From: a virus
DNA: 34,672 bases
Strand: one strand, 5' to 3'
IMG/VR virus record: IMGVR_UViG_3300040801_005898
Part shown: positions 34,196 to 34,626 of the stretch, piece by piece
Numbering within the stretch: the stretch's first letter is position 1
How the letters are laid out: every line of letters begins with the position of its first letter
The notes under the pieces: model-generated
Databases searched by the model: none
What the model was told of the DNA's origin: nothing
Seen by the model: only the letters and a program-made list of their open reading frames with translations
Made by a program: the position numbers and the translations under genes

Positions 34196-34537
34196 TTATG
34201 CACAATGCCCCAAACTAAATATTTGATGTCCATCTTTGTCGATGGTATATCCCCATATTGCAGAATAGAACAGTTCATAATTTTTGTACTTTACTTGCGG
34301 CAATTCCGCTTTGTGCTTAATGTTACCATAATGAATTGGACCGTAGTGAGTTTGTAGTTTTATTATCTGTCGCAAAAGCTCTTTGTGGCGGGGATGGTTT
34401 CCTTTGTGAACTGGGAAATATTTTTCCCAGTCTTTGTTGGAGCAGGTTTCCCACACTTCAATGATTTTTTTTAGAATATCAACGCATCCTTGTTGATACT
34501 GATTGACTTCTAGTTGGAATTTTTGAGTTGCTAACAT
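34196..34537 (-). CDS. Hypothetical protein downstream of hammerhead 2
   Basis: True start is likely ATG 34537 (MLATQKF) with an AAGGA SD; the longer ORF start lies inside the ribozyme. Confidence 0.65.
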   Translation of the reverse strand: MLATQKFQLEVNQYQQGCVDILKKIIEVWETCSNKDWEKYFPVHKGNHPRHKELLRQIIKLQTHYGPIHYGNIKHKAELPQVKYKNYELFYSAIWGYTIDKDGHQIFSLGHCA

Positions 34538-34559
34538 TTGTTTGTCCTTTGTTTGGTTT

Positions 34560-34626
34560 GCGGGACTCCCGCGACTCCCCAAGGGTGGGGAGTTTCGCCC
34601 GTGTCCGGCAGGGCTCTTCAGACGGG
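34560..34626 (-). ncRNA. Type I hammerhead ribozyme, copy 2
   Basis: Minus strand reads CCCGT-CTGAAGA-GCCC..GGGC-GAAAC-TCCCC-ACCCTT-GGGGA-GTC-GCGGG; predicted cut between 34573 and 34572. Confidence 0.9.

What the first reader, a model, noticed from the sequence alone, without database searches (positions are those of the whole stretch)
34535..34626. Second hammerhead copy: a portable ribozyme-plus-leader cassette with structure-preserving variation
Seen: ~70 nt nearly identical to copy 1 on the opposite strand, continuing into the same AAACCAAAC leader, with the cut 35 nt before a different gene (ATG 34537). Differences fall only at tolerant sites: N7 (C versus A), the stem I 5' strand (UCCGC versus CCCGU, both pairing GCGGG) and loop III. 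This pattern suggests selection for function and a reusable cassette that may also mediate accessory-gene exchange by recombination.
Basis: partly seen in the sequence, partly recalled or inferred. Interest (0 to 1): 0.75.

Follow-up and report, generated by a model that had tools for sequence, protein, structure and literature searches.

The report
Type I hammerhead at phage gene junction
The flagged 92 bases are a genuine-looking self-cutting "hammerhead" RNA plus a ribosome-binding leader in front of a small orphan gene of a cyanobacterial phage; this is a known kind of phage element, but in closely related assemblies the same gene sits behind three different upstream genes, each time joined inside this repeat.

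Summary
Observation confirmed. Window 34551-34625 (minus strand) repeats 25059-25133 (plus) at 92% over 75 nt. Both read as complete type I hammerheads: CUGANGA, GAAA, A15.1-U16.1 and C17. The cut falls after C34573, 35 nt before ATG 34537.

Rfam scores both below its thresholds. However, pattern scans found more than 270 distinct relatives in viral contigs and in genomes of Cyanobacteria, Bacillota and others. These show heavy covariation in stems II and III, and a covarying pseudoknot between loop II and the 3' tail (here GGAC:GUCC). They usually lie about 11 nt after a stop codon and 20-60 nt before the next start.

The host assembly holds four copies, all on or beside one phage-like contig of more than 107 kb.

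This is a new member of a known kind: clustered phage hammerheads were described by Perreault et al. in 2011.

Two features add some interest:
- A conserved downstream CCCGC can displace stem I after cleavage and cap the new 5' end with a hairpin.
- Near-identical assemblies place the downstream gene behind three different upstream contexts, always joined inside the hammerhead or leader. One of them is exactly the junction that an inversion between copies 1 and 2 would produce.

The recombination reading therefore has real support, but it rests on metagenome assemblies. Cleavage activity is untested.

The parts
34622..34626 (-). Copy 2, stem I 5' strand CCCGU. It pairs with GCGGG at 34572-34568; U2.1 and G1.1 form a wobble next to the core.
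   Evidence: Sequence; model alignment.
34615..34621 (-). Copy 2 catalytic core C3-A9, CUGAAGA (N7 = A).
   Evidence: N7 = A occurs in 21 of 274 family members.
34597..34614 (-). Copy 2 stem II (GCCC/GGGC plus U-A and G-C with a bulged C) and loop II. GGAC at 34606-34603 is the 5' strand of the pseudoknot.
34574..34596 (-). Copy 2 G12-A13-A14, then the stem III hairpin: A15.1, CUCCCC, loop ACCCUU, GGGGAG, U16.1.
   Evidence: stem III covariation.
34573..34573 (-). C17. The predicted self-cleavage site lies between 34573 and 34572.
   Evidence: Position in the hammerhead consensus; cleavage itself is inferred.
34560..34572 (-). GCGGG-AGU-CCCGC. GCGGG is the 3' strand of stem I. GUCC (34566-34563) pairs with loop II. 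After the cut the 13 nt can fold into a 5'-terminal hairpin (-8.7 kcal/mol).
34538..34559 (-). A/C-rich leader AAACCAAACAAAGGACAAACAA with a Shine-Dalgarno sequence (AAGGA) 7 nt before the ATG.
   Evidence: The same ribosome-binding block also occurs without a hammerhead elsewhere in the genome.
34196..34537 (-). Downstream gene P0003, 113 aa, an orphan with no family.
34153..34178 (-). Terminator-like hairpin of 10 bp followed by a T-run on the minus strand, placed between the convergent P0003 and helicase genes. It would close the unit that copy 2 opens.
34627..34672 (-). Upstream extension of the repeat. It resembles the tail of the 126-aa ORF that precedes copy 1 (window 25002-25035).
25058..25133 (+). 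Copy 1, a type I hammerhead plus AAACCAAAC. The cut falls after C25111, 8 nt after the stop of ORF 24669-25049 and 49 nt before ATG 25161.
25161..25406 (+). P0001, an 81-aa orphan ORF after copy 1. Its stop codon marks the breakpoint with the truncated thymidylate kinase gene.

Best explanation
Window 34551-34626 (minus strand) encodes a type I hammerhead self-cleaving ribozyme. It belongs to a widespread phage and prophage lineage with three shared features: a short CCGC/GCGG stem I, capped stems II and III, and a pseudoknot between loop II and the 3' tail.

Proposed mechanism:
1. The ribozyme is transcribed as part of a longer minus-strand RNA.
2. It folds (stem I plus the GGAC:GUCC pseudoknot) and cuts itself after C34573.
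3. The 3' product starts with a 5'-OH at G34572. It refolds its first 13 nt into the hairpin GCGGG-AGU-CCCGC. That refolding uses both the stem I strand and the pseudoknot strand, so it should release the ribozyme and block religation.
4. The product then presents an unstructured A/C-rich leader, a Shine-Dalgarno sequence and the ATG of the 113-aa gene, and it ends at the terminator at 34178-34153.

The result is a defined, context-independent mRNA for whichever gene lies downstream.

Because the same ~75-130 nt unit recurs four times in this phage, it also acts as a homology patch at which gene blocks have been recombined.

Shown: the motif, family covariation, its position, and the mosaic junctions in assemblies. 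Inferred: cleavage, refolding, the effect on expression, and the recombination mechanism.
For: - **Motif.** The core is complete and all helices are present in both window copies.
- **Specificity.** A stem-aware scan of the whole genome finds only these copies.
- **Family size and range.** Scans gave 274 distinct relatives in IMG/VR and in genomes of many phyla.
- **Covariation.** On 134 distinct sequences, 93% of cells are paired and 497 cells show changes on both sides. No shuffle of 500 reaches this, and versions with the 3' partner slid by a few columns pair in only 33-49% of cells.
- **Pseudoknot.** It reaches 4 bp or more in 148 of 274 members, against about 60 expected, with many covarying pair types and a fixed register.
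- **Close relatives.** The same genus carries GCGGG-AGU-CCCGC with different stems II.
- **Model scores.** The custom model scores the window copies at 63.5 and 63.4 bits; these are inflated because both copies were in the seed.
- **Position in the family.** Median distance from a stop codon to the hammerhead is 11 nt. The cut-to-start distance is 20-60 nt in 151 of 238 cases, against 70 of 238 in an antisense control.
- **3' hairpin.** CCGC lies 4-5 nt after GCGG in 95 of 274 members, against about 1-2 per other offset. The product hairpin has -8.7 kcal/mol.
- **Unequal divergence.** Within the duplicated unit the ORF tail diverged 24% but the hammerhead plus leader only 8%.
- **Mosaic junctions.**
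- **Literature.** Clustered hammerheads flank variable genes in prophages (PMC3088659; PMC6155905).
Against: - Both copies fall below Rfam's gathering scores. Copy 1 scores 20.5 bits against 34 for RF00163. Copy 2 reaches only 20.7 against 56.3 for RF03152 and 17.8 against 37 for RF02276.
- Nearest-neighbour folding, which ignores the pseudoknot, prefers the 3' hairpin state over stem I by 0.5-6 kcal/mol. A sizeable inactive population before cleavage is therefore possible.
- Copy 2 has a U.G wobble at pair 2.1-1.1, which is C-G in 133 of 134 relatives.
- Stem II of copies 1 and 2 carries a mismatch or bulge.
- There is no transcript or cleavage data.
- The region upstream of copy 2 lies beyond the window, so whether it sits between cistrons or in a 5' UTR is unknown.
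Confidence: 0.78

Rival explanations
1. Copy 2 is a decaying or inactive duplicate. On this reading the repeat persists only as a scar, or as a homology patch from a past inverted duplication, and does not cleave at a useful rate.
For: The U.G wobble at the otherwise invariant 2.1-1.1 pair. N7 = A is a minority state, in 8% of members. The minimum-energy fold is not the hammerhead fold. Other junctions in this phage are visibly damaged: the truncated thymidylate kinase gene, and gene Y after copy 3, which lacks a start codon.
Against: All 13 invariant core positions are intact, and every change still allows pairing. The hammerhead part diverged three times less than the co-duplicated ORF tail. 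Three assemblies carry copy 2 unchanged. It has an intact Shine-Dalgarno sequence, ATG, ORF and terminator downstream.
Confidence: 0.12
2. The element is a regulated switch rather than a constitutive cutter. The downstream CCCGC sequesters GCGGG and the pseudoknot strand, so cleavage happens only while that hairpin is prevented from forming, for example by transcription speed, temperature or a bound factor.
For: The two states are mutually exclusive and predicted to be close in energy. The competing strand is enriched about 30-fold at offsets 4-5 across the family. Perreault et al. raised allosteric control as a possibility.
Against: No ligand-binding or protein-binding domain is evident. About two thirds of the family lack the close CCGC (179 of 274) yet occupy the same positions. 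The stem I 5' strand is available before the competitor is transcribed. A role in product release explains the same facts.
Confidence: 0.08
3. The element is not a ribozyme at all. It would be a set of G+C-rich hairpins acting as a terminator, attenuator or protein-binding site, with the hammerhead core present by coincidence.
For: Rfam matches are below threshold. The region is rich in hairpins.
Against: The core letters are invariant across more than 130 divergent sequences while the stems covary. No T-run follows the hairpins. The genome-wide motif scan gave no chance hits.
Confidence: 0.02

Closest known systems
Type I hammerhead ribozymes of bacteria and phages with a stem I/loop II pseudoknot (Perreault et al. 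2011, PMC3088659; Rfam RF00163, clan CL00010)
   Same: The catalytic core is the same. The topology is the same, with stem I open and stems II and III capped. The tertiary contact is a Watson-Crick pseudoknot. The genomic setting also matches: short gaps between phage genes whose identities vary, with several copies per element.
   Different: The element scores below Rfam's gathering thresholds. Stem I is only 5 bp with a near-fixed sequence (CCGC/GCGG). In about a third of the lineage, including all four copies here, a second CCGC or CCCGC follows 3-4 nt after stem I and can replace the ribozyme's own strand. I did not find that feature in the passages I searched in two hammerhead papers (PMC3088659 and PMC6155905).
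PeSL 'mobile regulatory cassettes' of T4-type phages (Arbiol et al. 2010, PMC2839356; Comeau et al. 2014, PMC4122927)
   Same: Both are short conserved intergenic expression signals, repeated many times in one phage genome. Both lie at the boundaries of insertions, deletions and replacements between very close relatives, and both are proposed to act as homology patches for modular shuffling.
   Different: PeSLs are composite promoter-terminator motifs (per the title of PMC4122927; I did not read either paper). This element is a self-cleaving RNA plus a translation leader. The evidence here comes from four copies and a handful of metagenome contigs, not from isolate genomes.
RiboJ-type synthetic insulators
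   Same: Both combine a self-cleaving ribozyme, a hairpin at the new 5' end and an exposed ribosome-binding site, which makes expression independent of the upstream sequence.
   Different: RiboJ is engineered from a satellite-RNA hammerhead. Here the hairpin reuses the stem I strand itself. The insulating effect is only inferred.

Membership tests
Hammerhead ribozyme (type I) | Invariant core: C3 U4 G5 A6 N7 G8 A9, G12 A13 A14, the A15.1-U16.1 pair, and H17 (not G) at the cleavage site | tested here: met
   Copy 2 reads CUGAAGA ... GAAA ... U-C17. Copy 1 reads CUGACGA ... GAAA ... U-C17.
Hammerhead ribozyme (type I) | Three helices around the core, supported by compensatory changes | tested here: met
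   Stems II and III each have 5 pairs with changes on both sides. Overall 93% of cells are paired, and no shuffle of 500 reaches the observed score. Stem I is nearly invariant, partly because the search pattern fixed it. Its fifth pair does covary (CG 63, UA 20, GC 6, AU 4).
Hammerhead ribozyme (type I) | Type I topology: stem I open, stems II and III closed by loops | tested here: met
   Direct reading. A type II reading fails because no CUGANGA follows the downstream hairpin.
Hammerhead ribozyme (type I) | Tertiary contact between the stem I side and loop II, needed for fast cleavage | tested here: met
   GGAC (loop II) is complementary to GUCC (tail). Across the family there are many covarying pair types in a fixed register, and 54% of members reach 4 bp or more against 22% in the permuted control.
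Hammerhead ribozyme (type I) | Score at or above the Rfam gathering threshold (RF00163, 34 bits) | tested here: not met
   Copy 1 scores 20.5 bits. Copy 2 gives no RF00163 hit, 20.7 bits to RF03152 (threshold 56.3) and 17.8 bits to RF02276 (threshold 37). This is a limit of small seed models rather than a failed structural feature.
Hammerhead ribozyme (type I) | Site-specific self-cleavage giving a 2',3'-cyclic phosphate and a 5'-OH | not testable with these tools
   Needs a transcription and cleavage assay, or end-specific RNA-seq.
Clustered prophage hammerheads (Perreault 2011) | Several copies in one phage or prophage, in gaps between co-directional genes of non-constant identity | tested here: met
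   There are four copies, on or beside one phage-like contig. The downstream genes are all different: P0001 with the truncated thymidylate kinase gene, P0003, and gene Y.
PeSL-like recombination cassette | The repeat lies exactly at rearrangement breakpoints between near-identical genomes | tested here: inconclusive
   L277 and L278 join P0003 to other upstream genes inside the hammerhead or leader. Across the family, homology-block ends fall within 20 nt of a hammerhead in 10.1% of cases against 1.6% for random positions. However, the contigs may be chimeric, and no control with ordinary intergenic gaps was run.

The most novel reading that the evidence does not exclude
The hammerhead-plus-leader unit may work as a portable module boundary at two levels. 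At the DNA level, its ~75-130 nt of conserved sequence would be the crossover site at which this cyanophage population inverts and swaps gene blocks between operons. At the RNA level, self-cleavage followed by the stem I-to-hairpin strand swap would give any newly placed gene the same capped 5' end and ribosome-binding site, so that shuffled genes are expressed at once. This would explain why phage hammerheads flank genes of 'non-constant identity', a point left open since 2011.
Probability: 0.35. Interest if true: 0.65.

Novelty: new member of a known kind. Interest (0 to 1): 0.42.

Why it matters
The biological role of the many hammerheads in phage genomes is still open (PMC3088659, PMC6155905). 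This locus offers a compact and testable case:
- There are four near-identical ribozyme-leader units in one cyanophage.
- The built-in competing strand predicts product release and a hairpin-capped 5'-OH mRNA.
- Natural variants place the same gene behind different upstream operons, joined within the ribozyme.

If long reads confirm the junctions, phage hammerheads would join PeSLs as regulatory repeats that also drive modular genome shuffling. The lineage also shows that Rfam thresholds miss a large and taxonomically broad group of type I hammerheads.

Tried and rejected
- **Rfam.** Neither gathering nor E-value thresholds on the whole window found a hammerhead. Only narrow searches gave sub-threshold hits.
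- **Type II reading.** Taking the downstream hairpin as stem I was rejected, because no core follows it.
- **Phage database.** Megablast of 14.7 kb against the phage collection gave no match.
- **Exact-sequence scans.** The 39-mer upstream of copy 2 found nothing in the metagenome collection. The shared 30-mer found nothing in the metagenome or viral collections.
- **Homologues of P0003.** The search returned only P0003 itself. Pfam and PHROGs gave nothing for P0001, P0003 or the 70-aa and 126-aa upstream ORFs.
- **126-aa protein.** An exact-sequence look-up found no record.
- **CRISPR-like repeat at the window end.** I considered that the shared contig end (GTTTTCCCTCTAGTTTTAGGGGAC) might be a solitary CRISPR-like repeat. 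No similar sequence occurs in the host genome with up to 4 mismatches, so I dropped the idea.
- **Simple inversion history.** I tried to explain the window arrangement as a plain inversion of the L278 arrangement. It does not fit: L278 has no hammerhead at the thymidylate kinase end, and its right-hand genes are absent from this genome.
- **Global alignment of upstream flanks.** It was not significant. Only the local alignment was.
- **Family breakpoint test.** It shows enrichment but lacks a control with ordinary intergenic gaps, so I treat it as weak.

Full report
**1. The observation**

The window contains one outstanding repeat: 25059-25133 against 34551-34625, inverted, 75 nt, 92% complementary.

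Read on the minus strand, the second copy runs as follows: CCCGU, CUGAAGA, an 18-nt stem II hairpin, GAAA, the stem III hairpin CUCCCC-ACCCUU-GGGGAG, U, C17, then GCGGG-AGU-CCCGC, AAACCAAAC, AAAGGACAAACAA and ATG at 34537.

The pairwise alignment confirms where the differences fall:
- N7 is C in copy 1 and A in copy 2.
- The stem I 5' strand is UCCGC in copy 1 and CCCGU in copy 2. Both can pair with GCGGG, each through one G.U wobble.
- Loop III differs at four positions.

Two refinements:
- The four loop differences are one event, because ACCCTT is the exact reverse complement of AAGGGT. The palindromic stem III has flipped its loop.
- The repeat continues upstream into the end of the preceding ORF. 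Window 25002-25035 and 34672-34639 match at 26 of 34 positions, a score reached by 1 of 3000 shuffles. Blastn sees 131 nt at 79%.

**2. Is it a hammerhead?**

Rfam does not call it. Nothing passes gathering or E<10 on the whole window. Narrow searches give sub-threshold hits only:
- Copy 1: Hammerhead_1 at 20.5 bits against a threshold of 34.
- Copy 2: RAGATH-1-hammerhead at 20.7 against 56.3, and a poor type II alignment that lacks the core.

A stem-aware motif scan of both strands of the 7.06-Mb genome returned three hits. All are copies of this element, and there were no chance hits. Together with copy 2, which is cut short at a contig end in the held assembly, the genome has four copies:
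- two in the window;
- one at the other end of the same contig (C3:70-148, minus strand);
- one on contig C259, whose end overlaps the start of C3 by 55 nt.

Copy 3 has a different, fully paired stem II (GCCCGG/CCGGGC). Copy 4 has different stems II and III.

A pattern scan for CUGANGA...GAAAC...GUC-GCGGG-NNN-CCCGC in IMG/VR found 31 copies in 27 contigs. Every one has CCCGC directly before CUGA, although the pattern did not ask for it, and most (27 of 31) show a Shine-Dalgarno sequence and a start codon within the 45 nt shown after the hairpin.

The organisms include Nostoc, Calothrix, Anabaena, Microcoleus, Paenibacillus, many Clostridia and Acetobacteraceae, often with 2-5 copies within 8 kb. 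This gave 274 distinct sequences.

On a model-based alignment of 134 distinct sequences, 93% of cells pair and 497 cells carry changes on both sides. No shuffle of 500 reaches this score, and versions with the 3' partner slid by a few columns pair at only 33-49%. The core letters are invariant.

The structure also includes a pseudoknot between loop II and the tail that starts 2-3 nt after stem I:
- Pair types include UGGC:GCCA, GGCU:AGCC, GGUC:GACC, GACUC:GAGUC and GACACA:UGUGUC. Here the pair is GGAC:GUCC.
- It reaches 4 bp or more in 54% of members, against 22% when tails are permuted among members.
- It covaries even on a crude alignment.

Same-genus relatives carry GCGGG-AGU-CCCGC with different stems II.

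I conclude that this is a genuine member of a large lineage of type I hammerheads.

**3. Position and context**

Across the family, the 5' edge lies a median of 11 nt after a stop codon. The cut lies 20-60 nt before the first sizeable ORF in 151 of 238 cases, against 70 of 238 in an antisense control.

In the window:
- Copy 1 sits 8 nt after ORF 24669-25049 and 49 nt before ATG 25161.
- Copy 2 precedes a 113-aa orphan (P0003). That gene ends at a hairpin terminator placed between it and the convergent helicase gene.

The contig is phage-like throughout. It encodes a portal protein, protease, major head protein, tail proteins, a class II ribonucleotide reductase, a DUF3854 primase-like protein, a sliding clamp, a UvrD-type helicase and a ThyA-like protein. 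It carries more HIP1 palindromes than the host genome.

The distribution among relatives is patchy, as expected for mobile DNA: 9 of 36 genomes in the same family have a match, and 0 of 24 genomes sampled from other families of the order do.

**4. How it most likely works**

Cleavage itself is inferred from the motif.

A feature I did not find mentioned in the passages I searched in two hammerhead papers (PMC3088659, PMC6155905) is the second CCCGC, 3 nt after stem I. Across the family, CCGC occurs 4-5 nt after GCGG in 95 of 274 members, against about 1-2 at any other offset.

This strand competes with the ribozyme's own stem I strand, and it overlaps the pseudoknot strand. Nearest-neighbour folding, which cannot count the pseudoknot, puts the hairpin state 0.5-6 kcal/mol below the stem I state. 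With the 4-bp pseudoknot added, the two states should be close in energy.

The simplest reading has three steps:
1. The 5' strand is already waiting when GCGGG emerges from the polymerase, so the active fold forms and cuts.
2. The 3' product then snaps into its own hairpin (-8.7 kcal/mol). This releases the ribozyme and prevents religation.
3. The result is a 5'-OH, hairpin-capped mRNA with a free leader.

A regulated-switch reading is possible but less economical.

The caveats for copy 2 are the U.G wobble at pair 2.1-1.1, which is C-G in 133 of 134 relatives, and the weak stem II it shares with copy 1. N7 = A occurs in 8% of members.

One argument for selection comes from within the duplicated unit. 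The ORF tail has diverged 24%, while the hammerhead plus leader has diverged 8%, and most of that 8% is the single loop flip.

**5. The cassette and recombination idea**

P0003 has no homologues other than itself, but the exact protein is on six contigs. These contigs show different arrangements:
- **L279 and L280** (JGI) match the window arrangement and start at exactly the window's last base.
- **L277** (Logan) equals window 16508-25133 joined through one hammerhead to the reverse complement of window 34626-31277. So the 126-aa-type gene and a copy-1-like 5' half (N7 = C, loop AAGGGT) run into copy 2's leader and P0003. This is exactly the left junction that an inversion between copies 1 and 2 would create, with the crossover inside the shared 31-mer.
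- **L278** (JGI, a different project) has the 132-aa gene that precedes copy 3 and copy 3's stem II. It then has a loop (AAAGGT) that matches no copy in this genome, followed by copy 2's leader and P0003.

At its far end, L278 carries an intact 301-aa HTH-thymidylate kinase and no hammerhead. Homology to the window stops at 25403.

The window's kinase gene is identical from SWLLRQGIP onward but lacks the P-loop. The break falls at the stop codon of P0001.

Copy 3 in this genome, and in two further samples, runs into a gene that has lost its first 15 codons and its start codon. C259 carries the full version of that gene behind copy 4.

Copy 2 itself looks mosaic: its stem II matches copy 1, and its loop orientation and long leader match copy 3.

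Contigs from several samples begin or end inside these hammerheads.

All of this fits recombination at the repeat, comparable to the PeSL cassettes of T4-type phages. The caveats are these:
- These are short-read metagenome assemblies, and a repeat is where chimeras arise. L277 comes from what I recall (not checked here) to be a k=31 assembly, and the shared run is 31 nt.
- The family-wide breakpoint test shows enrichment (10.1% against 1.6% within 20 nt of a hammerhead) but has no control with ordinary intergenic gaps.
- I could not derive the window arrangement from L278 by one simple event.

**6. Comparison with what is known, and verdict**

Hammerheads in phage intergenic regions have been known since 2010-2011. 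They are often clustered and flank genes of non-constant identity. Many use Watson-Crick pseudoknots, and their role is unproven (PMC3088659; PMC6155905).

This scan has met such arrays before on other DNA, mostly of type II.

The present element is therefore a new member of a known kind. It is noteworthy for three things: the type I form that Rfam misses, the built-in strand-swap hairpin, and the natural rearrangement variants joined within it. Interest is moderate.

Noticed in passing
window 25297-25956 (homology starts at 25404): The thymidylate kinase gene is 5'-truncated. It is 100% identical to a 301-aa HTH-plus-kinase protein of contig L278 from 'SWLLRQGIP' onward but lacks the P-loop (GSGKST). 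The break falls exactly at the stop codon of the 81-aa ORF P0001, so the annotated 219-aa ORF begins with out-of-frame P0001 sequence.
   Followed up: yes
window 25098-25103 versus 34586-34581; also L278:100-105 and G000:C3 copy 3: Loop III of the hammerhead flips between copies. AAGGGT (copy 1) is the exact reverse complement of ACCCTT (copy 2). Copy 3 has GCCCTT and L278 has AAAGGT. This looks like repeated small inversions of a hairpin loop within a palindromic stem.
   Followed up: partly
window 34672 (end); L279:1; L280:1; G000:C3 ends; L285:1; the ends of L282 and L284: Contigs from several samples start or stop inside or just beside the hammerhead copies, and three of them end at exactly window base 34672. 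This points to repeat-induced or heterogeneity-induced forks in the assembly graphs. A physical genome end cannot be excluded.
   Followed up: partly
G000:C3:1-148 (L260, minus strand), L281:4414-4611: After copy 3, the downstream gene lacks its first 15 codons and its start codon, compared with the full copy on C259. The AUG inside the ribozyme core CUGAUGA opens a frame that reads through the whole hammerhead in frame with that gene, and JGI called it a 66-aa gene.
   Followed up: partly
G000:C3:551-568 and C39:332-350: The ribosome-binding block AACAAAGGACAAACAAA(A)TG, which forms the 3' part of the leader of copies 2 and 3, also precedes two genes that have no hammerhead. One of them is on a different contig.
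   Followed up: no
window 27076-28554 (minus strand): A 492-aa protein combines a thymidylate-synthase-like domain with a pterin-binding DUF4346 domain (per precomputed Pfam hits on L278 and L285). It lies next to the truncated kinase gene and may belong to a nucleotide-modification module.
   Followed up: no
window 8267-8338 (plus strand): A tRNA gene (42.4 bits, anticodon CAU as read from the alignment) lies inside the tail-gene block, on the opposite strand to its neighbours.
   Followed up: no
window 16285-16342 and 20639-20726: There are two short tandem or near-tandem direct repeats in gaps of the structural gene block: 29 nt twice at 93% identity, and 25 nt twice at 88% identity, 63 nt apart.
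   Followed up: no
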